A stretch of 63,481 bases of DNA, filler included, from Folioceros fuciformis (Eukaryota), in NCBI GenBank assembly GCA_049999805.1. It is 4 parts of 3 records of this genome, joined end to end, with 100 filler letters (N's around TTAATTAATTAA, not from the genome) between each part and the next. Parts side by side here need not be neighbours in the genome. Positions count along the whole stretch, not along the records: positions 28,337 to 48,697 come from JBNGIO010006283.1; 3 more parts are not named here. The stretch is one strand, 5' to 3'. Position 1 is the stretch's first letter. Each line of letters opens with the position of its first letter. Below the pieces are notes generated by a model. That model was not told the DNA's origin. It did no database searches and was given only the letters and a program-made list of their open reading frames with translations. A program made the translations under genes and the position numbers. Shown in pieces: positions 15,053 through 50,699 of this stretch.

Positions 15053-15940
15053 TCAATGAGAAGACAGAGGTGGTGGAGACATAATCACCTCTACATCTCG
15101 AGATAGGTCAGAGCCTCGAGAGATGAAGCTTTGAGAGGAGGGTTTTCCACTCGGTTGGTGGCCACATACTCTGGCGATAACGCCATACACTAGAGCAACG
15201 AGAACGAAGGTGAAGCAGACAAGCATGGCGAGCTGCACGTTTGCCAGAGTCTGGCCCCTTTCCTCCAGTTCTGGAGAATCACAGTCTATGCCTCCAGCCC
15301 AGGTTCGGCATCCGCCTGGAACCATAGACCCATACAAGCTGAAAGCAGTCTGGTAGAACCAAGCTCCTTGCATTGCCAGCACCATACTTGATGCGAGATC
15401 GATGACGAAGCTCTTGGGAAACACAGCCCCCAGAAGCGCGCCCAGCACGCACATACCAATCAAGATCACCAGGATGGCGTGGTACCTGCCTTCCAGCCCA
15501 GCATGGCTGGTGGAGTGGAAGTAGAACAAGAGAAGCTCGGCGGTGAAAGCCATAGATGCCACCACGTTCAGCCCGCCCTCTGGAAGGGGCAGCATCCCGG
15601 TGGCCTCCGACACCAGGGTGGTGACCCCGAAAATGAAGAACATCAGGAGCATGGCGGAGTGCTCGAAATCGTTCAAGTGGCTGGTATTAAGGCCCCCGTC
15701 CACAACGAACTTGACGTGCGTGGAGTAGAAGAACTCGATGCACATGTCCAGGAGAGAGCCCACGATCACCACATATATCTCCAGGTATCGGAAGCCTCGG
15801 GGTCCGCCCACAGCATGCCATACTCGGCCCTGGAAAGCTTTTGGCTCGGCGATGTACTTGGATATGCTCCCCACGAGGTGCCACAAGCCCACCATCAGAA
15901 ACAGAGATCCGGGCAGTACGTGACCCCAAAACGACCCCAT
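15053..15940 (-). CDS. TMEM45/DUF716-family multi-pass membrane protein, intronless, 295 aa
   Basis: N-terminal MGSFWGHVLPGSLFLMVGLWHL, HLNDFEHSAM, FYFHST.HAGLEGRYH, QGAWFYQTAF; several hydrophobic helices. Confidence 0.9.
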   Translation of the reverse strand: MGSFWGHVLPGSLFLMVGLWHLVGSISKYIAEPKAFQGRVWHAVGGPRGFRYLEIYVVIVGSLLDMCIEFFYSTHVKFVVDGGLNTSHLNDFEHSAMLLMFFIFGVTTLVSEATGMLPLPEGGLNVVASMAFTAELLLFYFHSTSHAGLEGRYHAILVILIGMCVLGALLGAVFPKSFVIDLASSMVLAMQGAWFYQTAFSLYGSMVPGGCRTWAGGIDCDSPELEERGQTLANVQLAMLVCFTFVLVALVYGVIARVCGHQPSGKPSSQSFISRGSDLSRDVEVIMSPPPLSSH

Positions 15941-19300: not shown

Positions 19301-19409
19301 CGGACAAGAGGTCCACACATTTTTGGTGCGAGATGGCAGCCACCAACACAAGCTGCCTGTGTACGAATTCCTAGACCGTCTGAACGACGAGATCAACGAC
19401 TGTAACTGA
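16368..19409 (+). CDS. PLS-class PPR protein, E1-E2-E+ type (PG box, no catalytic DYW core); organellar RNA-editing specificity factor
   Basis: Intronless ORF, first ATG at 16368. Repeated P-L-S triplets (SWTAMIAAYAQ / TFVSALQAC / LVSMYAKCGS), then P2-L2-S2, E1-E2 and WKKPGQSWIE..HTFLVRDGSH; stop before any HxE/CxxC. Confidence 0.93.
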   Translation: MGTHLAVLDFQQGMKGLSASAASTAGSAARTGIMSENAQVAQMFCKEGRLDKALVCLHQEELVPSVHIYKTLLQACMKRKALEEARQVHAHLAKHGLESNRILGDLLVSTLVSCGSLVDGLKLFRRLSNPSAVSWTAIIAGYCDSGQYLRALSCYEQMVKQEGAKPDTHTFVTLLKVCSRLEDLEVGRRIHADVVGHGFESNVFIASALVSMYAKCGSIEDAELVFHASSQRNAVCWNAIIAAYAQHGQGEMALRTFWQMQEEENVKPDTRTFVSALQACGSLAEKLEGGLEEGDTLREETLQVGRRLHAEATAGGFESDEFVRSALVSMYSKCGSILDARQVFDGLTRRTLVSWNAILTAYAKKEQGDKALEVYRQMQKERVKPDGRTVCSALQACSSIADGSVEDWQGVKVVSLRIGKAIHADAVRHGLELDTFVGCALVSMYSKCRSIADAQHVFDRFPHQNVVSWTAMIAAYAQQGQGARALQMFSHMQEAGVRPNARTFVAALQACTSLAEVEGIFLVDGQGVKLESLQTGREIHARARGLEMDIFVGTALISLYAKCGSIKDAELAFDALSHRNVVTWSAMIAAYAGLAQGERALQVYRQMRRAGVRPNSWTLVGALQSCALLAEREESTFVDGRSVKLQSLLIGRELHAEACVRGLQTDLFVASSLVSTYAKCGSIKDAEQVFGLLSQHDAGSWTAMISAYAQQGQGDKALQLYAKMQSAGVKADVATIVSVLEACSSLGALAACRRMHQTILDSGLECSSFAATSLIHAYGKCGSMGDAQLVFNSLPHPDMVSWNALIGGYARAGCSDMSVASFELMCRQGVRPDKVTFLALLSACSHGGMVDKGLEYFESMTRDHDLRADLEHYACVIDLVARAGLLCKAEELLSQMPMVPDGAVWLSVLGACQKHGNMSLATRAFKEAVALQPSQSAAYALMSNICADAGRHDAANEIDELRRDADAWKKPGQSWIECGQEVHTFLVRDGSHQHKLPVYEFLDRLNDEINDCN

Positions 19410-19682: not shown

Positions 19683-22600
19683 TTAATTGAAATGCCGTCG
19701 AAGTTCGTTCAGAAGAGAGTACAAGGGGGCTTCATTTTGATGCCGAGGGTTTCCTACAAGGAACACGTGCATGCGGTGTTCATGCTCAATCCACGTCTGG
19801 CCAGGCTTTTTCCATGCACCTGCGTTTCGTCTCAGGGCATGAATCTCCCTGGCTTGCCTCCACAGGCCAGCAGAAGCATAAATGTTGGACATTAGAACAT
19901 ACGGTGCAGCTTGCCTTGAATCTAAATCTACAGCGCCATCAAAGGCTCGCTTCCCCAGTTCAAGATTACCATGCTTTTGGCATGCACCCAACAGGCACAG
20001 CCACAGCGAGAAATCAGGCTGCATCGGCATCGATCGCAGCAGCTCTTGTGTTTTGCTTATTAGCCCTGCACGGCCAAGCAGATCCATCACGCACAAATAA
20101 TGCTCTAACTCGGGACTGACACCATGAAGTCTTGTCATCCTTACAAAATACTCCAATCCTTCATCCACCATTCCAGCATGACTGCACGCGGAGAGGATTG
20201 CCACAAATGTGACACCGTCTGGTTCAACACCAGCACCACACATTTGCTCGTAGCATTTGGTAGTCGTCTCATAGTATCCTGTTCGTGCATAGCCACCGAT
20301 AAGAGTATTCCATGAGACCACATCTGGGTGTGGGAGAGCGTCAAACACGGATTGGGCATCCACCATGCTCCCACATCTGCCGTATGCATGTATAAGACTG
20401 TTTGCGACAGAAGAACTGCACTCCAGTCCCATCTCTCCAATACTCTGATGGATGTCCACACACATGTCCAGGGCTCCACTATCACTGCAGATGTCGAGCA
20501 CAGAGAGAATTGCTGCCTCGTCGAGCTCCACATCCTCTGCTTGCATTTGTGAAAATAGGTGCAGCCCCATCTTGGCTTGATCATGCGCAGCATAGGCTGT
20601 GATCATGGCCGTCCATGCCACCACATCGCGCTCGGGCATCTGCTCAAACACTTGCTCTGCATCCTTCAGACTCCCACACTTTGAGTACATGCTAATCAGC
20701 GTGTTGCTGACAGCCACATCTGCAGCGAGACCATTCTCAGCTGCATCAGCGTGTATTTGTTTCCCTATCCGGAGGGACTTCACTTTGACGTTTCGCCCAT
20801 CCACCAAGAAGCTTACCTCTTCTTCTGAAGCGGAGCCGCATGCGTGAAAGGCGCTAACAAAGGTCTGAGCAGTTGGCCGGACATTTTCCTCTTCCATTTG
20901 TTGATATATCCTCAAACCTTGTTCTCCTTGGTCCTGCTGGGCGTATGCTGCAAGCATGGCGGTCCATGCCACTACATCCCGCTGGAGCAAACTGTCAAAT
21001 GCTTGCCGCGCATCCAGAATGCACCCACATCTAGCATACATACAAACCAAAGTGCTACCGACAAACATGTCCAATTCGCCACCCATGAGCACAGCTTCAG
21101 AATGTATTTCCTTTCCTTCCCGTAATGCCTTCACTTTCACCCTCATGCCGTTCACACGAGCACTTTCCTCGGCTTCTGCAACGGCAATACATGCCTGCAG
21201 GGCACTGACAAAGGTCCGAGAACATGGTCTGATTCCCATGTCTTGCATAACTCGATATAACTGTAAACCAGTATCACCCTGGTCCCAATGGACACAAGCC
21301 GAGAGCATCACAGTCCATGTCACGACATTGCACTCTGACAATCCATGGAATAGCTTCCGTGCATCTTCGATGCTGCCACATCTCGTGTACAGACTGAGCA
21401 AGGTATTGCATAGAAACATGTTAGACTGGAGCCCCATCCTAGCGGCTTCGGCATGTATTTCCTTACCCTTTCGAAGCAAACCCACCTTGACTGGCTTCCT
21501 GCCTAAGATTTTGATTTCTTCCCTTTCTTCAATGCTGAAACAAGCCTGAAGAGCGCTGACAAATGTCTGAGCATCTGGCCTGACACCTGCCCTTTGCATT
21601 TCCTCGTAGATCTCCAGACCTCGTTCTCCTTGATTCTGTTCGACGTAACCCGCAATCATTGCATTCCATGCCATCACATCGAGGTGGCTGAGTTGTTCGA
21701 AAACAAGTCTTGCATCCTTGACATTACCACACTTTGAGTACGTACAAACTAGATTGATGGCAACAAACATGTCTGAGTCGAACCCCAATCCAACAGCCTC
21801 GGCATGCAGTCTCTTTCCCTTCAGTAGTGACTCCAGTTTGACGAATTGTCCACCAACGGTTACAACTGCCTCCTGTTCTGAGAGAATGCTACATCCTTGG
21901 AGGGCACTGACAAAGGTCCGAGCATTCAGGGTAACCTTCTCTTTCTGCATTTCCATATAAATCTTCATCACCTTATCTCCTTGAGCATGCAGAACGTATG
22001 CAGCAAGCAGTGAGTTCCATAAAACTACATCACGCTCGGCCAAACCATCAAACACCTGCTGTGCATCCATGATGCTGCCACACTTGGAGTACATGTGAAC
22101 TAGAGCACTTGCCAGGAACATGTGCGATGCAAAGCCTCTCTCATAAGCTTCAGCATGTATCTGCTTCCCCTTATGCAACAACTCCACCTTAATACTCTGC
22201 CTGTCCACAGTTAACATCTCCTCCTTACCTGCAAGACAGCTGCATGCTTGGAAAACGCTGACAAAAGTCCTAGAATCAGGTACAAAGCCTTTGTCGACCA
22301 ACACTGCATAGGTCTGTAGGGCTTTTTCTCCTTCATCGTGCTGAACACATGCAGCAAGCATCGCATTACACACTACCATGTTGTGTTCAGGCAAGCTATC
22401 GAATACATGTTGGGCATGTTGAAATGTGCCACATTTGGCATACATGCTAATCAAAGTGCTTCCAACGAAAACATCTGACACAAAACCCATGCTTGAAGCG
22501 TGGGCATGTATTTGTTTCCCCCGTTGGAGAGACACCACCTTCAAATGCTGCCCTTCCAGAACGACACTCTTCTCCTTCTCGGCAAGGGTGCCACAGGCAA

Positions 22601-23423
22601 GGAGAGTGCTTACGAATGTCCAAGTATCTGGTATAACCCCTTCGTGTCGCATTGTCTCATAAATCTGCAGAGCAAGATCGGCTTGCTGCACCTGACTGTA
22701 CGCTGCCAGCATCACATTCCAGGACACCAAATCTCGATGGGTCAACCCATCAAAGACACTTCGAGCATTGTTTATGCTCCCACACTTTGTGTACATCCTG
22801 ATAAGAGAGTTAGCAACAAACGGGTTCGAGTCAAACCCATGCATCAGGCTGGCAGAGTGGATCCTCTTCCCCTCTTCCAAGTCCTCCAACCTACTACATG
22901 CTTTGAGCAAGCTGACGAGTGTGTACGAACTGGGCAGCACACCGTCCTGTTGCATCTGCTCATAACACGAAAGAGCCTGCCGAAATTGTCCAGCATTGCA
23001 GTAACCAGAAATGATGGCTGTCCAAGAGCACACAGTCCGGTCTGACAATCTCCGAAACACCTCAAGCCCATCAGCAAGGCACCCACATCTCATGAATGTG
23101 GTGACAACAAGGTCGCCCAGAAACCCGTTGGACTCAAATCCATGGTGTTTCAAGTGCGCATGTACCAACTTGGCCTCTGCAAAGCTCCTGGTCCTCGAGC
23201 ACGCCTGTAATAGGATTTTGTACATGCGCGGCGACGGCAAAGTATTTGATTGTTCCATGTAGAGCACAGCGAGGTCCAGCCGTCCCTCCTTGCAGAGAGC
23301 CTCTACTTGATCGTCTCCACAGGCGAGTTCTGCTCTTGAAGTCCATCGCGGCTGAAAATGTCGCAACCTGTGCAGACACTCCCAGCGCGGTGGGTTGGGA
23401 GCTGAGACACATAAATTGGCCAT
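19683..23423 (-). CDS. PLS-class PPR protein, E1-E2-E+ type, ~1246 aa
   Basis: Intronless ORF with about ten PLS triplets, ending WKKPGQTWIEHEHRMHVFLVGNPRH...; Arg-rich N-terminus compatible with an organellar transit peptide. Confidence 0.93.
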   Translation of the reverse strand: MANLCVSAPNPPRWECLHRLRHFQPRWTSRAELACGDDQVEALCKEGRLDLAVLYMEQSNTLPSPRMYKILLQACSRTRSFAEAKLVHAHLKHHGFESNGFLGDLVVTTFMRCGCLADGLEVFRRLSDRTVCSWTAIISGYCNAGQFRQALSCYEQMQQDGVLPSSYTLVSLLKACSRLEDLEEGKRIHSASLMHGFDSNPFVANSLIRMYTKCGSINNARSVFDGLTHRDLVSWNVMLAAYSQVQQADLALQIYETMRHEGVIPDTWTFVSTLLACGTLAEKEKSVVLEGQHLKVVSLQRGKQIHAHASSMGFVSDVFVGSTLISMYAKCGTFQHAQHVFDSLPEHNMVVCNAMLAACVQHDEGEKALQTYAVLVDKGFVPDSRTFVSVFQACSCLAGKEEMLTVDRQSIKVELLHKGKQIHAEAYERGFASHMFLASALVHMYSKCGSIMDAQQVFDGLAERDVVLWNSLLAAYVLHAQGDKVMKIYMEMQKEKVTLNARTFVSALQGCSILSEQEAVVTVGGQFVKLESLLKGKRLHAEAVGLGFDSDMFVAINLVCTYSKCGNVKDARLVFEQLSHLDVMAWNAMIAGYVEQNQGERGLEIYEEMQRAGVRPDAQTFVSALQACFSIEEREEIKILGRKPVKVGLLRKGKEIHAEAARMGLQSNMFLCNTLLSLYTRCGSIEDARKLFHGLSECNVVTWTVMLSACVHWDQGDTGLQLYRVMQDMGIRPCSRTFVSALQACIAVAEAEESARVNGMRVKVKALREGKEIHSEAVLMGGELDMFVGSTLVCMYARCGCILDARQAFDSLLQRDVVAWTAMLAAYAQQDQGEQGLRIYQQMEEENVRPTAQTFVSAFHACGSASEEEVSFLVDGRNVKVKSLRIGKQIHADAAENGLAADVAVSNTLISMYSKCGSLKDAEQVFEQMPERDVVAWTAMITAYAAHDQAKMGLHLFSQMQAEDVELDEAAILSVLDICSDSGALDMCVDIHQSIGEMGLECSSSVANSLIHAYGRCGSMVDAQSVFDALPHPDVVSWNTLIGGYARTGYYETTTKCYEQMCGAGVEPDGVTFVAILSACSHAGMVDEGLEYFVRMTRLHGVSPELEHYLCVMDLLGRAGLISKTQELLRSMPMQPDFSLWLCLLGACQKHGNLELGKRAFDGAVDLDSRQAAPYVLMSNIYASAGLWRQAREIHALRRNAGAWKKPGQTWIEHEHRMHVFLVGNPRHQNEAPLYSLLNELRRHFN

Positions 23424-23554: not shown

Positions 23555-26500
23555 ATGGAGCTGCAAGCACAGATGAAGGGGCGTCAGGTTTACACAAGTT
23601 TCTGGACATCTGGAAAGGAAAGGTAAGTTGATGCAAGAAATTTGCTGTCTCCACACTTGGTCATCTCACGAGATGGTTGAATGCAGGACAAGCTTTGTCT
23701 TGAGTGAAGCTGAAGCGCAGAGAATATGCAAAGAAGGGATGGTCCAGGATGTGCTAGGAGTCATGGACCAACAGGGAGAGGTGCCATCGGTACAAATGTA
23801 CAAGAATCTGTTGCAGGCATGTTCTAAACAGAAGGCCCTGGCTGACGCCAAGTTGTTACATGTCCATCTGGTCAACAATGGATTAGAATCCAGCAGATTT
23901 TTAGGCGACCTTGTAGTCACCACACTAGTGAATTGTGGGAGCCTTGATGACGGAATCCAGGCGTTCAGAAAATTGTCTCGCCGAACTGTTTTCTCTTGGA
24001 CAGCTGTCATTTCAGCGTATAGCAACGCTGGGAAAAGCCGGCAGGCTCTAATGTGCTATCAGCAGATGCAGCAGGATGGAGTGCTTCCAGACGCCTATAC
24101 ATTCGTGAGCTTAATCAAAGCTTGAAGTAGGCTGGGAGATCTGGAAAAGGGCCAGCAGGTACATGCTGCTGCTTTGAAGCATGGGTTGGGTTCGGATATC
24201 TTTGTCGGCAACAGCTTGATGAGTATGTACGCAAATGCGGGAGCCTCAAGAGTGCTCGGGGTGTGTTTGATGGATTCTGCCACCGTGATTTAGTGTCCTG
24301 GAATGCAATGTTGGCTGCATATTCTCAGCAGCGGCGTGCTTAGGGCTTTATTGGCAAATGAAAGAGGAAGAAGTTCGGCCAGATCCTCGGACGTTTGTCA
24401 GTGTTCTCCAAGCTTGTTCCGCTCTTGCAGAGCAGGAGAAAAGCGCACTTATGGGAGGGCAAGACCTCAAAGTCATAGCGTTGAGCAGGGGACAGGAAAT
24501 CCATGCTGAGGCTGCTAGGCGGGGTTGCGACTTCGACCCATTTGTGGGGAATTCTTTAGTCAGCATGTATGCCAAGTGTGGGGATCTTGTGTATGCACAA
24601 CATTTATTTGACAGATTGCCCCAGCATGATGTGGTTTCATCGAAGGCTATGATAGCTGCCTATGCTCAACAGGAACACGGAGAAACTGCCTTGAAGATTT
24701 TCAAGAAAATGCAACATGAGGGCATCGTGCCTGATTCATGCACCTTTGTCCGTGCTCTTCAAGCATGTGGCGCCGTTGCAGCACAGGAAGAAGCTACACC
24801 TGACAAGCTGGAAAGCATCAAGTTGGAGTCACTGCAGAGGGCGAAGAAGATGCACGCTGCAGCTGTAAGTATGAATTTCGAATCAGTTGCCTCTGTCCGC
24901 AGCAGCTTAGTTAGTCTGTATGCAAAGTGTGGGAGCATCGGGGATGCTGAACTGGTATTCGGCAGATTTGGCCAGCATGATGTGGAGTCATGGAATGCCA
25001 TGATTGCAGCATATGTTCAGCAACGACAGGGAGGGAAAGCTCTGCAGATTTATTTGCAGATGCATGATATGGGGGTTATACGAAATGCCAGGACTTTCGT
25101 TAGTGCCCTTCACGCATGCAGTACCATAGCCGAACAGGAAGACGGAGAACTTTTGGATGGCCGGCTTGTGAAACCTGAGTCACTCCAAAATGGGAAAAGA
25201 ATGCATGCTGAAGCTGCTAGATTGGGATGTGTAACAGACATATTTGTTGGTAACTCTGTAGTCAGTATGTATGCAAAGTGTGGGAGCACTGAGAAATGCT
25301 GAAGAAGTGTTTTACAGATTGTCTTACCGGGATGCTGTATCCTGGACTGCAATCCTCACAGCTTATACTCAGCGAAATGATGGAAAGACAGCCATGGAGA
25401 TATTCCAGCAAATGCTCGCGAAGGACATAGAACCAGATGCCAGAACCTTTGTCGGTGCTCTTCAAGCCTGCAGCATCCTGGCAGAAAAGGAGAACGGCAC
25501 GCTTGTGGGTGGGTTTGCGGTGAGGGCTGAGTCTCTGCTGAAGGGGAAGAAAATACATGCTGAAGCAGCAGGAGGGGATTTGGTTTAGACATTTATGTCT
25601 CTAATGCGCTGGTCAATATGTATTCAAAGTGTGGGAGCATCCAGGATCCAGAACAGGTGTTTAACAAATTATCCGAGCGCAATGTCGTGACGTGGACTAC
25701 CATGATTTCAGCATACATACAAGAGAAACAGCCGGAAAGAAGTTTGCAGCTCTTCTGGCAAATGCAAGCAGAGGGCATTAGGCCAACGGCTCACCCTTGT
25801 GGCATTGCTCTGCAGGCATGTGGTGCCATTGCAGACAAGGAGAGAAGTACACTTGTGGAAGGTCACAGTGTGAAAGTCGAGTCCCTCCAGAAGACGAAAG
25901 AAGTGCATACATCAGCTGTTGCTCGAGGTTCTGAATCTGACATTTCTGCGGGTAGCACTTTGGTTAGAGTGTACGCTGTATGCGGGAGCATTCATGATGC
26001 TGAACAGTTGTTTGACAGATTTCCCCAACATGATGTCGTGTCCTGGAGTGCCATGATTGCAGCATACGCACAGCAGCATCAAGGAGAAAAGTCCTTGCAA
26101 ACTTATGGAAGCCTGCGAGAAGCCGGAGTGATACCCAACGCTCAGACGTTTGCCAGCGCCCTCCAAGCATGCGGTGGCATTGCTGAAATGGAAAAAAAAC
26201 ATTTCTGTGGAAGGGCAAGGAGTTAAATTGGACTCGCTGCACAAGGGGAAAACGTTGCATGCTGATGTTGCCGACATGGGTCTTGAGTCTGATGTCTTTG
26301 TCGGTAGCGCGTTGATTCGGATGTATGCGAAGTGTGGAAGCATCGTGGATGCCGAACATGTGTTTGACAGCCTCTCCCAGCGCAACATTGTATGCTGGAA
26401 TGCAATGATTGAGGGGTATGCCCAGCACGGTGACGGGAAGAAGGCTCTACAAATATTTGCCGACATGCAAGGAGAAGGCTGGGAGTCAGATGAAGCTACG

Positions 26501-27331
26501 TATCTGTCTGTTCTGGAAGCGTGCTGCGTTACAGGATCCTTAGATATCTGCAAGTGCATGCACCGGAGAATCGTTGAGAGTGGACTCGACTGCAACCTTT
26601 CTGTAGCAAACAGTCTGATACATACGTATGGCAAATGTGGAAGCGTGGTGGAGGCTCAGAACGTGTTCGACTCACTTGCTGAGCCCGATGTGATTTCATG
26701 GAATACACTAACTGGTGGATATGCCCAACAAGGAAGCTACGAGACAAGCAGACATTGTTATGAGGCCATGTGTTGTGCAGATGTGAGACCAGATAAAGTT
26801 ACTCTGACGATGCTGCTGTGCGCATGCAGTCATGCTGGCAAGGTGGATGAAGGGTTGGAGTACTTTGAGGGCATGACTAGGGATCACGGCATTGCTGCAG
26901 AGCTGGAGCATTACGTGTGCCTGCTTGATCAGGTTGGCAGAGCAGGGCTGTTAAACAAGGCGGAGGAATCGCTCTCCACTATGTCAATGCAGCCTACGTT
27001 TACCATGTGGCTGTGCTTATTGGCTTCATGTCAGAAATATGGTAATGTGGTGCTGGGAAAGTATGCGTTTGATGGTGCCTTGAGCGTAGACACAGGACAA
27101 GCAGCACCTCATGTGTTGATGTCAAACATGTACAGTGACGTGGGCATGTGGGAACATCCAAAGGCAATGGATGATTTGCGACGAAAAACAGGCGCATGGA
27201 AGAAGCCTGGCCAGGCATGGTTTGAGCATGAGCAACAAGTGCACATGTTTCTAGCGGGGGATAGAAGGCATGAACAAGAGGGTGAGACGTATGAGTTACT
27301 GAGGGAGCTGGACTCGTGTAGTGGTACGTGA
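23555..27331 (+). pseudogene. Disrupted paralog of the neighbouring PLS-E+ PPR genes
   Basis: Continuous PPR homology over ORF pieces 23628-24125, 24358-25302, 25271-25588, 25618-26226 and 26150-27331. In-frame TGA at 24123-24125 replaces a conserved Cys; about five frameshifts/deletions; ends WKKPGQAWFEHEQ. The 5' start is uncertain. Confidence 0.85.
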
Positions 27332-32146: not shown

Positions 32147-33838
32147 TCAATCGAATCCAAGACGGAGCGAGAGATCTAATTTAGGGGGGGCCGGGAAAGG
32201 GTCTTCGCGAGGCCTGTCCGCCCCAAATCCTTGAGCATTTCCAAGATCAGGGCGAGCTTTACAAGCAAGATCAGTATTGTTGGCGACGAAGCGTTGGTGG
32301 GGCTGGGCTGCAGCGGCAACAGAGGTCGCCACTGCCCCTCTCAACGTTCCTTCAGGGCGGGGGCCAACTAAAGCGGCCTGCCAGCTTGCGCGGGTATCGT
32401 CCTCGTGGAAGGAGGGCACAATCGATCTGCCCAAGTGCTCGGCAGCCTCGAAACGCGCCCCTCCTCCTCCACCACCACTACCACCTGCACCTCCACCTCC
32501 ACCTCCTTCACGGCCTCCACCTCCGACTCCTGCAGCCACTACAACTCCTCGACTTGGCGTCCTGCCGTGGCCGTTAGTGTTGCTGCTGCTGCTGTTGGGA
32601 GCCGCGGCAGCACCATACTTGCCTGGGCCCGGGTTAAAGCTCATGTACGACTGCCTGGGCCAGCCCGGGAGCAGGGCATTAGCTGGTCGAGGCAGAGGAA
32701 CACAATCGGCCATGAGGGGCTGGTTGCTGCCGTAGCCATGGTGCTGAAGCGTGGCCGAATGAGCCTGCACGCCCAGGGTTCTGTGGCTCACACCGCTAGC
32801 CCCAGCTCCCAAACCATCCAAATTTGGGTGCGGCGGCCGGGCCTGATGGTGCGGAGAGTGCTGCAGGTGGAGCGGCATTAGCCGAGGAGCCACCACCGAT
32901 CCAAAGCGCTGAGCCCGCCTCGCAGCCGTCCTCTCCCGCTTATGGGCATTCTGGTGTCCACCCAAAGCCTGCGAGCTGAAGAACTTCCTCTGGCAGAAGT
33001 TGCAGGAGAAGACGCGCTGCTCAGCTGCTGCTCCTCCTGCTGCTACTGTACCTCCTCCTGCCGATAACTCTGCGCCTGCAGTCCCCGTAGCTGCAGCTCC
33101 TCCACCACCACCACCACCTCCTCCTCCTCCTCCCGCCGCGGCGTCGCTGCTGCTCCCAAAAGGGCTGTCATCCACATTCAAAGAGGCAGAGTTCTCCCCC
33201 TCGTGAGAACGCCGGCTGCCCTCGTCCGACCGAGTTGGGCTGCTGGAGGAAAGGGATCTCCAGCTGCTGTGGCACTCCACATCCGACGTGGCCACCTCTT
33301 CCCGAGATCCCGTCCCTGCCGCCTCCTCCTGCTGGTGGTGCTGCTTCCAAGTCGCCAATGGTGATACCGCCGCCTCCGCCGGCGCAAAGCATGCGTTCTC
33401 CTTCACACAAGATGCGGCTTCCCCTTGCCCTTGCCCATGCCCTTGCTCTAAGCGGCTGCTGCTGCTGACGGGCTCACGCTCCTCGGCGGCGGTGCTCCTG
33501 CCGAAGGCGTCCGAGTGCAACCTCTTGGATTTGTGCTGGCTCTGCTGCTGCTGCAGCTGCTGAGCATCACCAATCCGCAGACTCAAATCCAGGAACGATT
33601 TCACATGTACATCCTTGACGATCACCACATCCCTGCCAGCCTCCAGATCCAGGAAGAGATGATGGCCCTGGAGCACCGCCGCCGATGCTCCAGCCTGCCC
33701 AGATGTTGCTGCTCCTGGTCCCCCTCCGGCCCCGGCGGCGACTGTGGCTGCAACCCTAAGGCAGGAGGAGGATGCCCAGGGGAGCGCGGAGTCGGCCAAC
33801 ACGCTGTTGGGCTGCCCTCCTTCGGGAAGGCTTCTCAT
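32147..33838 (-). CDS. Single C2H2 zinc-finger protein (QALGGH, ZFP/GIS/SUPERMAN-like group) with EAR repression motifs, ~563 aa
   Basis: [39 protein letters not shown]-terminal LDLSLRL and internal LDLSLRI. First in-frame ATG is at 33838, with an in-frame TGA upstream at 33916-33914. Confidence 0.92.
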
Positions 33839-35772
33839 GTTCAAAACGGCGCGACCATCATTTTCCGATGCACCAGCTGCAGCGGCAGCGGCGTCCCTGC
33901 CTCTGCCTGCCGCTCATGGGTGATCCATGCTGCTGCTGCTGCAGCAGCACCGTGCACATGCGTCCCTCGTTGTTGTGGTTCTCCTTGCTCTTCGCCAGGT
34001 GCAGTGTCGGCGTCACGAGAACAAGCTGCACTTCAGCAAGCTGCTGTTGCTGTGATGGTGGTGGTAGTGGTGGTGGNNNNNNNNNNNNNNNNNNNNNNNN
34101 NNNNNNNNNNNNNNNNNNNNNNNNNNNNNNNNNNNNNNNNNNNNNNNNNNNNNNNNNNNNNNNNNNNNNNNNNNNNCTTCAAGCCTTTCTGGCTGCAACC
34201 TCGCCCACACCATCCTGCGCTCGCCACCACGCTCCTCCCTCCTGTCGTCCACACTCCCAACTCTTCACCTTCCTTTTCATTTTCTCGCAGCCCCCACTAC
34301 AACTACGACCAACAACAAGAACAACAACAACAGCGACAAGGGCGACACCAGCAACGACAACAACAACAATAGCAACTCCTCCTTTCCTAAACAAGTCCCA
34401 CCACTGTCACAAACTCCCCTTTCAACCATACGGTATCCATACACCCCACATATAATAAGTCGTCTTTCTGCTCTCTCTCTCTTACCTGGACCCTCCGACT
34501 GCTGTTACGCTAGTACCTGGCTAGCTTGGCATATACTAGCTAAAAGGGAAGTACTGTAGTTCAGTGGGTGTCTCTGCAGTGGACTTTATTACAACTGTAT
34601 CTCACCACACGACACCGCTTTTCCAGTGATCATAAAAAGCGACCCGGCACCCTTGGCTGGTCATTGGTAGGTACCAGTGGCGGTGTGAGATCGGGCCCTC
34701 TCTTGTGCAAAATATGAGTATGGAGAGAAGTCAGTCCATCTCTCCGGTCGGAGCCGTATGCAGGTAGATAGATAACAGGACTTTCAGGACTGCACGAATG
34801 CTTCCTGGGAGAGAGCTGCCCATATCCAAAGAGATTCTGCCACACGACAGGACACCAGCACAGCGCAGAGTTGGAAGGGGGGGGGGGGGGGTGGTGCAGC
34901 GGAAGGCGACGGGAGTGAAGAGAAGGCAAGGCAAGGGCAGGGAAGGAGGGACGCCCGCAAACGAAGACACACACATGTACATGGGGCAGGGAACCTGCTC
35001 GATTCAACCCGCCGCTTCCTTTGCGAAGCAGCAGGAGCTGCTGCTGCTGCTGCTGCTGTTGCTTCTCCGAGAACCCGCAGCCATGCATCTCCACTCCACC
35101 AAACGTAGGTGGTGGGTAGGTAGTAGGTGTTACATATTTGTACATCCTCCTAACTCCACTTCAGTCAGTCCGGCCCGGCTTGCTAGCTAGCACCACTGCC
35201 TGCTGCACAAACATGTCTGTCCCATGTGGTCCACTTCCCCATCTCATGTCATCCCTCCTACCAGCCGGGCGAGAAAAAAGGTCCAGGACCTGTAGATGCT
35301 GCTGACAAGAGAATCCGCTTTCCGACCGCACCGGGGCCATGCCCCCATGTTCTCTCGCAACCTCAGTTTCACAAAACAGCGTACCCCCGCTCTCAGCATA
35401 CTTAGCATGGATGATACATTCACAACAGAACGAATATGGTTAGCAATGTTCAGGCGGATCAGACACCCAACCTCCCGTGTGGCAACTGCTACCAGACCCC
35501 ATGAGAAGAAAAAAAAGCGCTGAAACGACACTCCAGAAAACTTCGTCAACTTTTGTCCTCTCCTTCCAGCCGGCCTGTCAGACATTTCGACTCCCAAAAT
35601 AAAGCGAAACCCCTATCCGCACAATCCCGGCGACAGTGTGTACCCTGGGGGCATGCAATCATCCCCCTCTCATCAAGACGTGGGTGATGGACCACCTTCC
35701 TCGCTAACGTGGCACAAAGTGTTGGTGACCGGCAAAACTTGTGAAACCCACTTACAACCCGGCCGGGGCATG

Positions 35773-38256
35773 TCAAGGTCTATCCCCACATGTACACGAA
35801 CCATCCCGGAAGCAGTGCACCCTATGTGCATCCCTGACAATTATCTCCCTCTTCTCAAGCCGTGACAGGACCTTAGTGCTACTGTGGCAGTCATCGCACA
35901 TTCTAAGATTCTTGGTGACCAGCAAACCTGTGCCTTCTGGAGTGTGGACTAGACCATACGCCAAAGCCAGCTTCTCTGCATGTCCACAAAGCGCATTCTC
36001 CTTCTCCTCCTCAGACATTATCTTAAGCACCAAATCCGTTCGTGGCATATGCCCTCCTTCCTCCTTCAACTTCATACTCACACTTCTGAGCTTGGATGAG
36101 ATATCGCACCGCTCTTCCCCAACTGTAAACTCGTGCAGCTCGTTCTTGACTTCGATGCACACCTTTGCGGGAATCTTACAGGCACCGGCAGACCTTCTCA
36201 GGCACTCCAACGCCTTCACATCTTCCCATCTACCTACATTTGCGTAAATGGTACCCAGAACAACATATGCATAAGCATTTCCAGGGTCCAATACTACAAG
36301 ATGATCAAAACATCGTCGTCCTCGTTCTACATCACGGTGGCTTTTGCAGGCATTCAACAAGGATTTCCAGCCCACGACATTGTCAAACGGCATACTTCGC
36401 ACCATACTCTCTGCCTCGTCGAGGTGGCCTGACCGTGCGAGAAGATCGATCATGCAATTGAAATGATTATCAGTGGGCGCGATGCCATAGTCTTCCACCA
36501 TCATCCTGAAAAACTCCTGGCCCTCGTGCACCAGGCCAGCATGACTGCATGCCACAAAAAGACATATGAATGTTCTGTCATCTGGCTCCACACCTCGCTG
36601 ACGCATATCGGCGAAACATTGCATCGCCATTTCACAATCACTATGTTCAGCATAACCATTGAGCAGAGCAGACCACGTGACCGCATCTTTGGTCGGCAAG
36701 GCGTCGAACACCTTGCGTGCATCTGCCATGTTCCCGCACTTGGCATACATGTTCACCAGGCAATTGCCGACTAAAAGGTCCGCCTCCAATCCCACATCCT
36801 TGATCTTTGCATGCAGCTCTTTCCCATGCTGGAGAGCTCCTAAGCTGGCGCACGCTTGAAGTAGGCAGACAAAAGTAGCCTGATCGGGCGGAGTAACACC
36901 CTCCTCCTGCATGTGCCCATACAGACTGAGGGCTCCTTGGGCGAGGCCCTGGTGCGTGTACCCTGCGATCATGGCGTTCCATGTCACCACAGTCTTGCTT
37001 TCTGTGGGCAATGTGTCGAACACTCGGCGAGCATCCCCCACACTTCTGCATTTGGCATACATGTTCACCAAGCTAGTGCCAACAAAAGTGCCAAGGTGAA
37101 CTCCACTCCCCAAAACATCAGCATGCACCTCCTTGCCTGAGACTAAATCCGTCGCAGCTGCACAAGCCCCCAGCACCGCAGCAAACGTATGGTCATCCGG
37201 CTTCACAGAAGTCTCGGATTCTCGCATTTGCCGATACAGATGTATGGCCTGTGCGGGCTGCCCATGCCGGGCGTACGCCGAGATAATAGAGGACCACAAG
37301 TAGGTGTTGGGGCCAGCCACCTCGCGGAACACCTGGGCTGCTTCCTCCAACCTGCCGCATTTAGCATACATGTTCACCAGGCTGCCGCTTACGAACATGT
37401 CGGGGCTGACATCCGCGAGCAGAATGTGAGCATGAACCTCCTTGCCGGAATCCAGATCCTTGGCCATGGCACAAGCCTTGAGGACTGCCACGAACAAGTG
37501 GTTGTCCGGCTTCACACTGGACGCACCCCGCATCCGCCGATACAGCTGGATAGCCTGTGCTGGCTGGCCATGCCGAGCATGCGCCGAGATGATGGTGGCC
37601 CACATATGAGCGTCCGGAGCAGTGACGTTGGAGAACACCTGCACAGCATCCTCCAATTTGCCATGAGACGCATACATGGCAATGATGTGGTTGGCCAAGA
37701 ATGCGTCTGATGCGTGCCCGCTTCTGATAGCCAGAGCATGGATTTGCTTCCCCAAACACAGATCCTTGCACTCGATGCATCTCTTGAGCAGGCGGTAAAA
37801 GAGAGAAGCGGGAAGAATCGAGGTGGTGCGCAGCACCGAGACATGCAATGCTTGGACAGCCTCCCTGAGCTCCGCTCTGGATCCCCCCGCTGCCCCTCCG
37901 CCTGGCTCCTCCGGCAGCTGCCATTCCCTGCAGCCTGGCGTGCATAGCCACAATGCCTGCTTGGAGGTCTTGTGCCTGAAGTCAGGATGATTCACACTCA
38001 GCTTGACGGCTCTTTGGTCCAACCACTGCAACGGATCCGAGAGGAAGTCTTGCCACAAGAGCTCCTGCTGCCGCTCCTTGCCACCGATGCTGCTGCTGCT
38101 GGCCAGGCACCTTGTTCGTTTCTTTCCTGCTCCCGCGGCTGCCGGTGCCGGGATCCTAGAACGCACACGGCCTAGCCGCTGCATCCACCACGTTCGCTCC
38201 TGTAGAGCTCCCGCATTGCCAGCACCTGGCCGCGGGAGCACACCCTCCATCTCCAT
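35773..38256 (-). CDS. PLS-class PPR protein with N-terminal PDF (OSB-type) motif and C-terminal DYW:KP-variant domain; candidate U-to-C RNA editing factor, 827 aa
   Basis: Intronless; about 14 PPR motifs plus E1/E2; KIPAKVCIEV in place of the PG box, HAEKLA, NLRMCDDCH and a C-terminal CTCGDRP. Residues 65-112 are ELLWQDFLSDPLQWLDQRAVKLSVNHPDFRHKTSKQALWLCTPGCREW. Confidence 0.92.
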   Translation of the reverse strand: MEMEGVLPRPGAGNAGALQERTWWMQRLGRVRSRIPAPAAAGAGKKRTRCLASSSSIGGKERQQELLWQDFLSDPLQWLDQRAVKLSVNHPDFRHKTSKQALWLCTPGCREWQLPEEPGGGAAGGSRAELREAVQALHVSVLRTTSILPASLFYRLLKRCIECKDLCLGKQIHALAIRSGHASDAFLANHIIAMYASHGKLEDAVQVFSNVTAPDAHMWATIISAHARHGQPAQAIQLYRRMRGASSVKPDNHLFVAVLKACAMAKDLDSGKEVHAHILLADVSPDMFVSGSLVNMYAKCGRLEEAAQVFREVAGPNTYLWSSIISAYARHGQPAQAIHLYRQMRESETSVKPDDHTFAAVLGACAAATDLVSGKEVHADVLGSGVHLGTFVGTSLVNMYAKCRSVGDARRVFDTLPTESKTVVTWNAMIAGYTHQGLAQGALSLYGHMQEEGVTPPDQATFVCLLQACASLGALQHGKELHAKIKDVGLEADLLVGNCLVNMYAKCGNMADARKVFDALPTKDAVTWSALLNGYAEHSDCEMAMQCFADMRQRGVEPDDRTFICLFVACSHAGLVHEGQEFFRMMVEDYGIAPTDNHFNCMIDLLARSGHLDEAESMVRSMPFDNVVGWKSLLNACKSHRDVERGRRCFDHLVVLDPGNAYAYVVLGTIYANVGRWEDVKALECLRRSAGACKIPAKVCIEVKNELHEFTVGEERCDISSKLRSVSMKLKEEGGHMPRTDLVLKIMSEEEKENALCGHAEKLALAYGLVHTPEGTGLLVTKNLRMCDDCHSSTKVLSRLEKREIIVRDAHRVHCFRDGSCTCGDRP

Positions 38257-38729
38257 TTCTCCTCCAGTTACCCTTCTCCTCCATTACCCTGGACAAGATG
38301 CGGGATTCAACAACCCTATCTGTGCTAGACCTCCGTCCGAGTATCCTTTGCTTGGAGCCTTTGATTCAAGCATAGCTGATTTTAGAGGCCGACGAACGAG
38401 AGCAGCACAAGACTATACATGCTCTGAGACCTGGGAGGGTCTTGTTACGTCAACTAACCCTAACAACTCCCACAGCTCGCCCTTCCGAGACAGAAGGGCC
38501 TAAAGTGGTGCGTGAAGAATTCCACCAGCACCTATGGCAATCTGTTCCACATGCTCTTGAGGCTTGCTAGACGGGGCATTTGGCAGTTGTGATGACAAAG
38601 CCACACCAGACAATTGCTGACAGACGAGCAACGTCCACTCCACCTCCCAAAACACTTCAAGAGAATGGTGAGCCACAATCAGAACAAGCCCTCCCTTGTG
38701 TTCCATTTCTTGATCCAAAAAAGGCGGGG

Positions 38730-39150
38730 CCTTGACAAAGCTAGCTCATGATTCACATAGCCAGTTATCAGGCCCTTGTGTATGGTGTCACAACGTGCTC
38801 GGGCATCTGAAAGGCAAGCAAAAGCAGCACGACTTCCCGCTACGTGGCCCTCCTACTCCATCAGTCTATACACAGCCAGGGCCTCTTGGCCGAGCCCATG
38901 ACTCGCATACCCAGCCATCAGGGGACATTCCGTATCACCACAACGACATCTTTTGTTGGCATGCTGTCCAAAAAGCATGCGTGCAGCTTCCAGTCCCCCG
39001 CATGTTGCACATATTGTCCACTTAGCGGTTGCGAACTGCCAAGGTCGGTCCACTACCCCTGTGCCATGCACAGAGCTTGAAGGGCTGCAACAAAGAGTGA
39101 GCATCCGCGTTCACACGAGTACTGCATTGATTCAGTTGTAAGGCCACATG
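38730..39150 (-). pseudogene. Short, highly decayed PPR relic
   Basis: Frameshifted S/P motif remnants: CATCGGLEAARMLF ... LMAGYASHGLGQEALAVYRLME*, and LITGYVNHE. Confidence 0.6.
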
Positions 39151-49141: not shown

Positions 49142-50699
49142 ATGCAGATTGTGGAGGAGGTGAAGCAACTGGGCCACATCGTCGTCCCCGTCGCGGCAGT
49201 GAATTGCGTGGTGTACCTGCGGGCAATGATCTCGGTGCTGTGCCTGGGGCGGCTGGGCGNNNNNNNNNNNNNNNNNNNNNNNNNNNNNNNNNNNNNNNNN
49301 NNNNNNNNNNNNNNNNNNNNNNNNNNNNNNNNNNNNNNNNNNNNNNNNNNNNNNNNNNNCGTTCGGGTCTAAGAACTGGGCGCTCATGGGCGTGACGCTG
49401 CAGCGCACCATCCTCATCCTGCTGTCGGCGTGCCTGCCCATCGGGCTGCTCTGGCTCAACCTGGAGCGAATCCTACTAGCTCTGGGGCAGGACGCCAGCA
49501 TCACGGCCGTGGCGGGCACCTATTGCTTCTACTCGCTCCCTGATCTGCTGGCCAACAGCTTGCTGCAGCCGCTGCGGGTGTATCTGCGGTCGCAGGGCAT
49601 CACCACACCCATGATGTGGTGCAGCGCGCTGGCAGTGCTCATCCACATTCCTCTCAACGTGGTGCTGGTGTTCGTGCTTAAGCTGGGCGTCCCGGGGGTG
49701 GCCATGGCCGCTGTGTGCACCAACTTCAACATGGTCTTCTTCCTGGTGGCCTACGTCCGCTGCTCGCGCGCGTGCCGGCGCACCTGGCACGGCTGGTCGC
49801 GCGCCGCGCTCAAGGAATGGTGGCCGCTGCTCTCCTTGGCCCTGCCCTCCTGCTTCGCCATCTGCCTCGAATGGTGGTGGTACGAGATCATGACCCTCCT
49901 GGCCGGCTACCTCCCTGAGCCCCAGGTGGCCGTGGCCACCACTGCCATCCTCATCCAGACCACCTCACTCATGTACACCTTCCCCCTGGCCCTCAGCTCC
50001 TCCGTCTCCACCCGGGTGGGGAACGAGCTGGGCGCCGCCCGCCCCGCCCGCGCCCGCACCGCCTCCCTCGTGGCCCTGGCCTGCGCCCTCGCCATCGCCC
50101 TCGTCAGCGTTGCCTGGACCACCCTGCTGCGCAACCGCTGGGCGCATGTCTTCACCACCGACCAGAGCGTGCTGGCTCTGGCTGCCGCCGTCATGCCCAT
50201 CATGGGCCTCTGCGAGCTGGGCAACTGCCCCCAGACCACGGGCTGCGGTGTGCTCCGGGGCAGCGCCCGCCCCGCCATCGGCGCCCGCATCAACCTCGGC
50301 TCCTTCTACTTCCTGGGCACGCCGGTGGCTGTGGCTCTCGCCTTCTGGTTCAAGATAGGGTTCGGCGGCCTCTGGTACGGCCTCTTGGCCGCACAGGTCG
50401 CCTGCGCCTCCTCCATCCTCTACGTCGTGCTCCGCACCGACTGGGCCTTCGAGGCGGCCAGGGCCAAGCTTCTCACCTCAGCGGCGGCGGCGGCAGCGGC
50501 AGCGGCGGCACCACCTCCTCCCTCCTTCGAGTTCCCCGACGTCACGGACCCGGATCTGGACGAAGAAACAGGCCTGCTGCGCCTGGACCAACTCTCGTAC
50601 CGCGACCACGAGGAGCAACAAGCAAACGGTTTCCGAGGCTGTCCCATGCAGTTGTTTGCAGTCAGCTCCGAAATCGAGACGGAGGAGGAGGAAGCTTGA
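49142..50699 (+). CDS. MATE/DTX transporter of the intron-poor DTX48-56-like clade; interrupted by an assembly gap at 49260-49359
   Basis: [22 protein letters not shown] before the gap; [36 protein letters not shown] and [21 protein letters not shown] after it. The true start codon is uncertain. Confidence 0.92.

What the first reader, a model, noticed from the sequence alone, without database searches (positions are those of the whole stretch)
37921..38064. OSB-type PDF ssDNA-binding motif fused to a PPR-DYW:KP editing factor
Seen: residues 65-112 of the intact 827-aa ORF (ELLWQDFLSDPLQWLDQRAVKLSVNHPDFRHKTSKQALWL...W) lie between a putative transit peptide and the PPR array. Known: LW..FF..P..WWD.R..K.....PDFKHK.T..ALW is the PDF motif of plant organellar ssDNA-binding (OSB) proteins, which mediates ssDNA binding. 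Editing PPRs normally have no N-terminal accessory domain. Inference: the motif could tether a U-to-C editor to nucleoids, R-loops or nascent transcripts, add single-strand nucleic-acid affinity, or direct the catalytic domain to ssDNA. I know of no description of this architecture but cannot search the literature or databases.
Basis: partly seen in the sequence, partly recalled or inferred. Interest (0 to 1): 0.88.

Follow-up and report, generated by a model that had tools for sequence, protein, structure and literature searches.

The report
PDF ssDNA-binding motif on PPR editor

Summary
The 827-aa ORF (35773..38256, minus strand) is intact. A profile built only from PDF motifs of OSB-type proteins matches aa 60-106 at 54 bits (iE 6e-14 at Z=1e5). 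A search of 1.84 billion proteins with aa 58-118 gave 290 hits. The gene is a PLS-class PPR-E-DYW editing-type protein. Its deaminase is of the KP kind in two of three marks (H-A-E; C-terminus D-R-P, not D-Y-W), but the name-giving pair reads I-P.

The fusion is not unique and not KP-specific. PDF copies N-terminal of a PPR array occur in Sphagnum, Ceratodon, Diphasiastrum, Adiantum and Pteridium proteins, three of them with canonical PG-type DYW. A collinear 828-aa homologue (51% identity) has the same architecture. In 4 of 4 homologue pairs the PDF is better conserved than the presequence and the linker. However, its C-terminal third is eroded here, and two related proteins have lost the motif.

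The function is inferred, not shown: an auxiliary single-strand nucleic-acid binding or nucleoid-tethering module at the 5' side of the bound RNA. Seven full-text searches found no description of PDF+PPR; Zaegel 2006 and Gutmann 2020 could not be read. Verdict: real, conserved, apparently undescribed variant architecture. Interest 0.6.

The parts
35773..38256 (-). Whole CDS, 827 codons plus stop, no interruption: presequence - PDF - linker - PLS-type PPR array - E - DYW
   Evidence: A 4196-base contig of run X1 (kind not on record) matches 34890-39085 with 0 other letters and 0 gaps.
38080..38256 (-). aa 1-59, presequence-like N-terminus (R/A/S/G-rich; Met at 1, 3 and 25; next in-frame Met only at aa 195)
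   Evidence: Direct reading. No targeting predictor was available, so the cleavage site is not tested.
37939..38079 (-). PDF motif, aa 60-106 (profile match).
   Evidence: AF2 model of aa 55-121: mean pLDDT 82.6, 91-96 over model residues 11-50, one helix plus a small sheet.
37819..37938 (-). aa 107-146: eroded C-terminal end of the motif and a G/A-rich linker (boundaries approximate)
   Evidence: Linker 25% identical to P0213 against 48% for the PDF. A relative's contig has an in-frame 6-base deletion at 37876.
36340..37818 (-). PLS-type PPR array, about aa 147-639 (start approximate)
   Evidence: PPR_2 1.2e-63, PPR 1.7e-60; collinear with P0213
36166..36339 (-). E motif, aa 640-697. At aa 694-698 stands K-I-P-A-K, where PG-type proteins have P-G and KP-type have K-P.
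   Evidence: E_motif 3.4e-11; direct reading
35782..36054 (-). DYW deaminase domain, aa 735-825: H759-A760-E761, K782, C787-x-x-C790-H791; protein ends D-R-P
   Evidence: DYW_deaminase 6.1e-34; direct reading

Best explanation
Shown: the gene encodes one polypeptide made of an organelle-type presequence, one OSB-type PDF domain (aa 60-106), a flexible linker, a PLS-class PPR array, an E motif and a DYW deaminase with intact zinc and catalytic residues. The DYW is of the KP-like kind. The PDF+PPR arrangement is an old, recurrent architecture of non-seed land plants. The PDF is under purifying selection in that context.

Inferred: the PDF is kept in the mature protein as an accessory single-strand nucleic-acid binding module. 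PPR arrays read RNA N-to-C along 5'-to-3', and the DYW acts just 3' of the last repeat. The PDF therefore sits at the 5' (upstream) end of the bound transcript. There it could add sequence-independent affinity for single-stranded nucleic acid. Alternatively, as in OSB proteins where the motif binds ssDNA, it could hold the editing factor on single-stranded DNA of transcribing or recombining nucleoids, so that editing happens close to the template. The PPR-E-DYW body alone should suffice for catalysis; the PDF would modulate efficiency or location.
For: Identity of the motif:
- phmmer gave 290 hits, the OSB-type ones at E down to 3e-20.
- An OSB-only HMM scores 54.0 bits, iE 6e-14.
- The proteins used for that HMM are named OSB2/OSB3 in 6 of the 10 looked up.

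One polypeptide:
- A single ORF.
- Pteridium transcriptome-derived proteins P0138, P0093 and P0113 carry PDF and PPR on one contig.

Recurrence:
- 9 of 150 representatives have Pfam PPR. 11 of 150 do by similarity to the PPR array, always with 1-3 PDF copies N-terminal of it.
- 7 of 121 PPR proteins retrieved by PPR similarity carry a PDF.
- Named sources are Sphagnum, Ceratodon, Diphasiastrum, Adiantum and Pteridium.

Constraint:
- PDF identity is 48/75/76/59%, against pre-PDF 15/0/52/18% and linker 25/47/44/29%, in 4 of 4 pairs.
- The 5 listed differences of relatives' contigs inside the motif all fall on codon position 3, and 4 of the 5 are synonymous.

Folded unit: AF2 pLDDT 91-96 over model residues 11-50.

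ssDNA binding of the motif in OSB1, and the preference of OSB1/2 for ssDNA: passages of PMC6963530 and PMC4166229.

Geometry of PPR on RNA: passage of PMC10482289.
Against: - No binding, localisation or editing data exist for any PDF-PPR protein.
- The C-terminal third of the motif is eroded here: 4 of 17 conserved OSB columns are not kept, and pLDDT is 57-60 after model residue 50.
- Two related proteins, P0183 and P0216, keep the PPR body (P0216 also a KP-type DYW) but no longer match the PDF profile. The domain can therefore be lost.
- Moss factors PPR56 and PPR65 edit in E. coli from constructs that lack nearly everything upstream of the first PPR (passages of PMC10482289 and PMC6397227). 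An N-terminal domain is thus not needed for the reaction itself. I could not check whether those two proteins carry a PDF.
- OSB1/2 prefer ssDNA to RNA, which does not favour an RNA-affinity role.
- The PDF tree (65 columns) is unresolved, so a single origin of the fusion is not shown.
- No solved fold resembles the model, so the structure gives no functional hint.
Confidence: 0.6

Rival explanations
1. Vestige. The PDF was acquired by an ancestral PLS-PPR gene and is now decaying in this clade. In this protein it is a folded but functionless remnant, or just a spacer.
For: The C-terminal part of the motif is lost in P0001 and altered in P0213. The motif is unrecognisable in the related P0183 and P0216, which keep the PPR body. 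Editing by moss PPR-DYW proteins needs no N-terminal part in E. coli.
Against: 13 of 17 conserved columns are kept. PDF is 48% identical between P0001 and P0213, against 15% for the presequence and 25% for the linker. 4 of 5 listed differences in relatives are synonymous. The core has high model confidence.
Confidence: 0.2
2. The PDF acts here as a protein-protein or oligomerisation module, for example recruiting OSB or other nucleoid proteins or pairing editing factors, rather than binding nucleic acid itself.
For: The motif occurs in very different contexts and copy numbers: 1-13 copies, and once in a kinesin-domain protein, P0038. OSB2 is reported to be a tetramer (passage of PMC6963530).
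Against: The only function reported for the motif is ssDNA binding. The conserved aromatic and basic residues (W, W, R, K, F, K, W) are what one expects of a single-strand binder. That last point is my inference.
Confidence: 0.13
3. The PDF directs the PPR-DYW enzyme to single-stranded DNA as a substrate, giving base conversion on organellar DNA.
For: The PDF binds ssDNA in OSB1. Designer PPR arrays can bind ssDNA (title and abstract of PMC5992170, seen in the listing).
Against: No call gives any evidence of DNA editing by DYW proteins. The same fusion stands on ordinary PG-type moss proteins of the C-to-U RNA editing kind.
Confidence: 0.04
4. Chance similarity, or a gene-model artefact in which the motif belongs to a 5' leader or to another gene.
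For: No run on record as RNA was available to show the transcript. PPR genes and PDF-coding sequences are both abundant in such genomes.
Against: E-values. There is no stop between the motif and the PPRs, and no in-frame Met between aa 25 and aa 195. The same order is found in at least five named genera, and on transcript-derived proteins of Pteridium.
Confidence: 0.03

Closest known systems
[quoted passage not shown]
   Same: Shares the roughly 50-residue PDF motif with its P-D-F core and flanking W/R/K residues. Like OSBs, it has an organelle-type presequence.
   Different: P0001 has no SSB-like OB-fold. It has one motif placed N-terminally instead of 1-3 or more C-terminal copies. The rest of the protein is a PPR-E-DYW enzyme. 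The C-terminal third of the motif is eroded.
PLS-class PPR-E-DYW RNA editing factors (e.g. moss PPR56 and PPR65)
   Same: PPR array, E motif, and a DYW deaminase with H-x-E and C-x-x-C-H (direct reading). Expected to read RNA upstream of the edited base.
   Different: Carries a folded accessory domain between the presequence and the first PPR. The published descriptions I read treat the N-terminus only as a targeting signal (passages).
DYW:KP subclass (proposed U-to-C editors of hornworts, lycophytes and ferns)
   Same: Ala after the catalytic His (H-A-E). C-terminus is not D-Y-W (D-R-P). The conserved active-site Lys is present (K782). A close homologue, P0216, has the K-P pair.
   Different: The pair itself is I-P here, and K-A in P0213. 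No activity data exist for any natural KP protein (stated in PMC11845758).
P-class PPR proteins with accessory domains (maize PPR4 with an N-terminal RRM; PPR-SMR; PRORP-NYN; OTP51-LAGLIDADG)
   Same: A PPR array combined with a second nucleic-acid-related domain. PPR4 is a precedent for an N-terminal single-strand binder (passage of PMC9459714).
   Different: Those are P-class proteins with other domains. Here a PLS-class editing-type protein carries a PDF.

Membership tests
PDF motif (as defined in OSB proteins) | About 50 residues with a conserved Pro-Asp-Phe signature | tested here: met
   P91-D92-F93 sits within a 47-residue profile match. Definition taken from passages of PMC6963530.
PDF motif (as defined in OSB proteins) | Significant sequence similarity to PDF motifs of proteins that carry the SSB-like domain | tested here: met
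   OSB-only HMM: 54.0 bits, iE 6.3e-14 at Z=1e5. 13 of 17 conserved columns kept. 6 of the 10 source proteins looked up are named OSB2/OSB3.
PDF motif (as defined in OSB proteins) | Binds single-stranded DNA | not testable with these tools
   Reported for AtOSB1 only. Needs EMSA with aa 55-121.
OSB protein family | Central SSB-like OB-fold domain | tested here: not met
   No SSB hit among the best 25 of the 33 Pfam families matched at E<=1; aa 140-827 are covered by PPR, E and DYW. The 8 unlisted families were weaker than E 0.02.
OSB protein family | PDF motif(s) C-terminal of the OB-fold | tested here: not met
   A single motif at aa 60-106, N-terminal of everything else.
PLS-class PPR-E-DYW editing factor | PPR array followed by an E motif and a DYW deaminase domain | tested here: met
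   PPR_2 1.2e-63; E_motif 3.4e-11 (640-697); DYW_deaminase 6.1e-34 (735-825).
PLS-class PPR-E-DYW editing factor | Zinc and catalytic signature H-x-E ... C-x-x-C-H | tested here: met
   H759-A-E761 and C787-D-D-C790-H791, read.
PLS-class PPR-E-DYW editing factor | Edits a defined organellar RNA site | not testable with these tools
   No organelle genome or transcriptome of the source was available (no genome held).
DYW:KP subclass | Lys-Pro pair in place of the Pro-Gly pair at the start of the DYW region | tested here: inconclusive
   P0001 reads K-I-P-A-K, so Pro is kept and the Lys of the pair is Ile. It is clearly not P-G. Homologues read K-P (P0216) and K-A (P0213). PG-type PDF-PPRs read E-P-G-R. 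Criterion from PMC11845758.
DYW:KP subclass | The Ser after the catalytic His is replaced by Ala or Cys | tested here: met
   H-A-E in P0001, P0213 and P0216, against H-S-E in P0143, P0177 and P0231.
DYW:KP subclass | C-terminal triplet variable, not D-Y-W | tested here: met
   Ends D-R-P (P0213 D-R-H; P0216 D-A-H). The PG-type proteins end D-Y-W.
DYW:KP subclass | U-to-C editing activity | not testable with these tools
   The activity of natural KP proteins is itself unknown, according to PMC11845758.

The most novel reading that the evidence does not exclude
In non-seed land plants, a subset of PLS-class editing factors is physically coupled to organellar DNA. The N-terminal PDF domain clamps the factor onto single-stranded DNA, such as the displaced strand of transcription bubbles or R-loops, or recombination intermediates, so that C-to-U and U-to-C editing is co-transcriptional. 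By my recollection, not from a call, these lineages lack the MORF/RIP helper proteins of seed plants. The PDF would then be an ancestral built-in helper that was later lost.
Probability: 0.15. Interest if true: 0.8.

Novelty: new variant of a known kind. Interest (0 to 1): 0.6.

Why it matters
PPR editing factors are usually drawn as targeting signal, PPR array, E and DYW. Heterologous editing tools are built without the N-terminus. A conserved, folded, OSB-type domain in front of the array in mosses, lycophytes, ferns and this KP-like protein has three consequences:

1. It adds a domain architecture that annotation misses. Pfam has no model for it, and the database entries I saw are 'hypothetical' or 'unnamed'.
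2. It links the RNA-editing machinery to a motif whose only known activity is ssDNA binding. That makes the question of where editing happens relative to the nucleoid directly testable.
3. It bears on the design of natural KP-type U-to-C editors, whose activity has not yet been reconstituted.

It also widens the known range of the PDF motif beyond the OSB family.

Tried and rejected
- Word-index protein searches with the motif region gave almost nothing: 0 hits for P0001 aa 55-125, and only 2 Ceratodon proteins for P0177 aa 60-120. This is a limit of that index, not evidence of rarity.
- No whole genome is held for the window, so paralogues in the same genome could not be counted.
- The ESM Atlas gave no usable hit.
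- PDB by sequence profile: best E 0.078, an anti-CRISPR, not significant.
- Foldseek against the PDB: no match at E<=0.001; best E 2.2, a WWE domain.
- VIA-align wide: best Z 2.6. This is no evidence that the fold is new.
- Expression: no RNA holder is listed. Run X1 holds the whole stretch, but its kind is not on record, so its 4196-base gap-free contig shows contiguity only, not transcription.
- The small-share runs X2, X13 and X14 carry contigs with about 5-10 differences per 100 bases over parts of the gene.
- Tree of 63 PDF segments (21 PPR-linked, 42 SSB-linked). Only the 18 SSB and 17 PPR proteins were used, the other roughly 120 representatives were left out, and segments spanning under 35 profile columns were dropped. 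Only 2 of 60 inner branches were starred. The PPR label needs 6 changes against 17.8 in shuffles (0 of 500 as low), but kin share labels. One origin is neither shown nor excluded.
- Papers not held: Zaegel et al. 2006 and Gutmann et al. 2020. Either may mention PDF motifs outside OSBs or N-terminal domains of PPRs.
- Supplementary tables and figures of PMC13393729 (the PDF domain catalogue) were not seen.
- I did not use the second structure job or the complex predictor, because no binding claim rests on them.
Full report
THE OBSERVATION

The window holds an uninterrupted 827-codon ORF on the minus strand, 35773..38256 (protein P0001). Residues 65-112 correspond exactly to 37921-38064. Pfam finds PPR repeats (PPR_2 1.2e-63), an E motif (aa 640-697) and a DYW deaminase domain (aa 735-825, 6.1e-34). 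It finds nothing on the first 130 residues, because Pfam has no model of the PDF motif.

IS THE MOTIF REAL?

I searched aa 58-118 alone with phmmer against 1.84 billion representative proteins. This gave 290 proteins at E<=1e-3, 71 at E<=1e-10 and 5 at E<=1e-30, many with several copies (up to 13) of the matched stretch.

I scanned the 150 listed proteins against Pfam at E<=1e-5:
- 18 have an SSB domain with the matched stretches C-terminal of it, which is the OSB architecture.
- 9 have PPR repeats.
- 1 has a kinesin motor.
- Most have no Pfam domain at all.

Of 10 SSB-bearing hits looked up, 6 are named OSB2 or OSB3 by NCBI or UniRef, 1 'single-stranded DNA-binding protein', 1 hypothetical, and 2 are unnamed.

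I then scored P0001 and the six-frame translation of the window. P0001 aa 60-106 scores 54.0 bits (iE 6.3e-14 with Z set to 100,000). This is the only match in the window, at 37939-38079 on the minus strand.

Of 17 profile columns that are at least 80% one residue in the OSB segments, P0001 keeps 13: W68, P75, W78, D80, R82, K85, P91, D92, F93, K96, L102, W103 and P107. N is replaced by D at aa 74. The last three (W, V, L of the C-terminal stretch) are not matched. The motif's C-terminal third is eroded.

THE REST OF THE PROTEIN

Upstream of the motif are 59 residues rich in Arg, Ala, Ser and Gly, with Met at positions 1, 3 and 25. The next in-frame Met is at aa 195, inside the PPR array. A start downstream of the motif would therefore truncate the array. 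No targeting predictor was available, so the cleavage site is untested.

The DYW domain has H759-A-E761, the conserved active-site K782 and C787-x-x-C790-H791, and the protein ends D-R-P. PMC11845758 (passages) sets KP-type apart from PG-type DYW by three marks:
- a K-P instead of a P-G pair at the start of the domain;
- Ala or Cys instead of Ser after the catalytic His;
- a variable C-terminal triplet.

P0001 meets the second and third marks. At the first it reads K-I-P-A-K: Pro is kept, and the Lys of the pair is Ile. Its homologues read K-P (P0216) and K-A (P0213). I therefore call it KP-like rather than a clean member. It is certainly not PG-type.

THE FUSION ELSEWHERE

The PPR-bearing hits all have the PDF N-terminal of the array. 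By similarity to the PPR array of P0001, 11 of the 150 representatives are PDF(1-3 copies)+PPR. Several further short fragments run from a PDF straight into a first PPR-like stretch (alignment A1).

Source names:
- Sphagnum compactum, S. jensenii and S. troendelagicum;
- Diphasiastrum complanatum (several loci, some with two PDF copies; P0152);
- Adiantum capillus-veneris;
- Pteridium aquilinum.

The Pteridium entries derive from transcriptome contigs, so there the motif and the PPRs lie on one assembled transcript.

A second route gave the same picture. I searched with aa 1-330 of P0001 and listed 120 PPR proteins. Together with one more, 7 of these 121 carry a PDF match: Ceratodon purpureus P0177, P0231 and P0290; Diphasiastrum P0179; and the unnamed P0213, P0241 and P0280. 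None of the Ginkgo, conifer or angiosperm proteins in that list does. That list was chosen by PPR similarity, however, so this is only a hint that seed plants lack the fusion.

Five PDF-PPR proteins have complete DYW domains. Three are canonical PG type with H-S-E and a D-Y-W end (Sphagnum P0143, Ceratodon P0177 and P0231). Two are KP-like (P0001, P0213). P0241 is PG-type as well, but it looks like an unspliced model of a P0231 relative. The fusion is therefore not tied to KP.

ORTHOLOGUE-LEVEL CONSERVATION

P0213 (828 aa, from an unnamed contig) aligns with P0001 over 811 columns at 51% identity. It has the same order of parts and a KP-like DYW. Region by region:

| Pair | pre-PDF | PDF | linker |
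|---|---|---|---|
| P0001 / P0213 | 15% | 48% | 25% |
| P0177 / P0290 | 0% | 75% | 47% |
| P0136 / P0179 | 52% | 76% | 44% |
| P0177 / P0231 | 18% | 59% | 29% |

The PPR-to-C-terminus region of P0001/P0213 is 54% identical. In all four pairs examined the PDF is better conserved than both of its flanks.

Contigs of runs from related organisms, differing at about 5-10 bases per 100, cover the motif. The five differences listed inside 37921-38064 all fall on third codon positions, and four are synonymous. A 6-base in-frame deletion sits in the linker at 37876. Only the best-supported differences were shown by the tool, so this is a sample.

Against constraint: two related proteins, P0183 and P0216, keep the PPR body (P0216 also a K-P type DYW). 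They retain only fragments of the motif and no longer match the profile.

CONTIGUITY AND EXPRESSION

One run (X1, kind not on record) holds a 4196-base contig identical to 34890-39085, without gaps. This shows that the motif, the PPRs and the DYW are contiguous in an independent assembly. It does not show transcription.

STRUCTURE

AlphaFold2 was run on aa 55-121 with a 21-row alignment. It gave mean pLDDT 82.6, with 91-96 over model residues 11-50. The model shows a helix (aa 58-73) followed by short strands around aa 78-80 and 93-95, and low confidence after aa 105. No solved structure matches by sequence, by Foldseek (best E 2.2) or by VIA-align (best Z 2.6). The core is thus a small autonomous fold without a known structural relative. 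This says nothing about function.

HOW IT MOST LIKELY WORKS

Shown:
- one polypeptide;
- a genuine PDF;
- an intact PPR-E-DYW enzyme;
- a recurrent and conserved architecture.

From the literature (passages read):
- The PDF motif of AtOSB1 suffices for ssDNA binding, and OSB1/2 prefer ssDNA to dsDNA or RNA (PMC6963530; PMC4166229).
- PPR arrays are numbered so that the last repeat faces position -4 of the edited base. The N-terminus therefore faces the 5' end of the site (PMC10482289).
- Moss PPR56 and PPR65 edit in E. coli without their N-termini.

Inferred: the PDF is an accessory single-strand binder placed at the upstream end of the bound RNA. It is not needed for catalysis. It most plausibly raises local concentration or residence, either on the transcript or, in keeping with its known preference, on single-stranded DNA of active nucleoids.

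I give about 0.6 to 'functional accessory nucleic-acid-binding or tethering domain', 0.2 to 'decaying vestige in this clade', and the remainder to a protein-interaction role, DNA as a substrate, or an artefact.

COMPARISON WITH WHAT IS KNOWN

It is not an OSB: there is no OB-fold, and the motif is at the other end of the protein. It is a PLS-class PPR-E-DYW protein of the KP-like kind. Accessory domains on PPR proteins are known for P-class members (RRM in maize PPR4, SMR, NYN, LAGLIDADG; passage of PMC9459714).

I found no mention of a PDF on a PPR. Full-text searches covered 'PDF motif' with OSB, PPR, DYW and pentatricopeptide; 'PDF domain'; motif strings; and OSB with DYW. They returned OSB papers that do not mention PPRs, and PPR papers that do not mention the motif. 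The 2026 OSB family survey selected only proteins with both an OB-fold and a PDF (PMC13393729, passages), so it would have excluded these genes by design.

The founding OSB paper (Zaegel 2006) and the KP-defining paper (Gutmann 2020) are not held, and supplements were closed. A passing mention there cannot be excluded.

VERDICT

A real, conserved and apparently undescribed variant architecture of editing-type PPR proteins in non-seed plants. This window holds one somewhat eroded, KP-like member. Its sense of uniqueness, and of a special link to U-to-C editing, is not. Interest 0.6.

Noticed in passing
window 16368-19409 (+), 19683-23423 (-), 24358-25302 (+), 26276-27331 (+): A cluster of further PLS-class PPR genes ending in an E motif without a DYW domain (1013 and 1246 aa), plus two shorter PPR ORFs that may be pieces of one interrupted gene. 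None has a PDF motif. Their repeats carry extra acidic stretches of about 15-20 residues before the conserved G-K/R-x-x-H.
   Followed up: partly
P0241 (unnamed metagenome protein), aa about 30-125: The PDF motif is split by about 80 unrelated residues right after the N-R-x-x-K stretch. The rest of the protein closely follows Ceratodon P0231. This looks like an intron read through by the gene caller, so the PDF-coding part of moss PDF-PPR genes may contain an intron.
   Followed up: no
P0002 (1160 aa), P0003 (908 aa), P0100 (1065 aa), P0038 (1526 aa): Proteins with 11-13 tandem PDF copies and no credible Pfam domain, and one with 3 PDF copies N-terminal of a kinesin motor. The motif is a far more mobile module than the OSB literature suggests.
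   Followed up: no
window 32147-33838 (-) and 33900-34100: A 563-aa low-complexity ORF with a single C2H2-like finger (Q-A-L-G-G-H) and a terminal L-D-L-S-L-R-L stretch, with no Pfam hit at 1e-6. A run of N lies just upstream in the assembly.
   Followed up: partly
window 15053-15940 (-), 49386-50699 (+), 61205-63094 (+): A DUF716 membrane protein, a MatE transporter exon and a copia-type gag/integrase ORF. This is ordinary plant nuclear context.
   Followed up: yes
P0183 and P0216 (unnamed contigs): Relatives of P0001 in which the N-terminal motif has decayed: the W-W-D part is still readable and the P-D-F-K-H-K core is gone. P0216 keeps a clean K-P type DYW. They are natural 'PDF-less' comparators.
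   Followed up: partly
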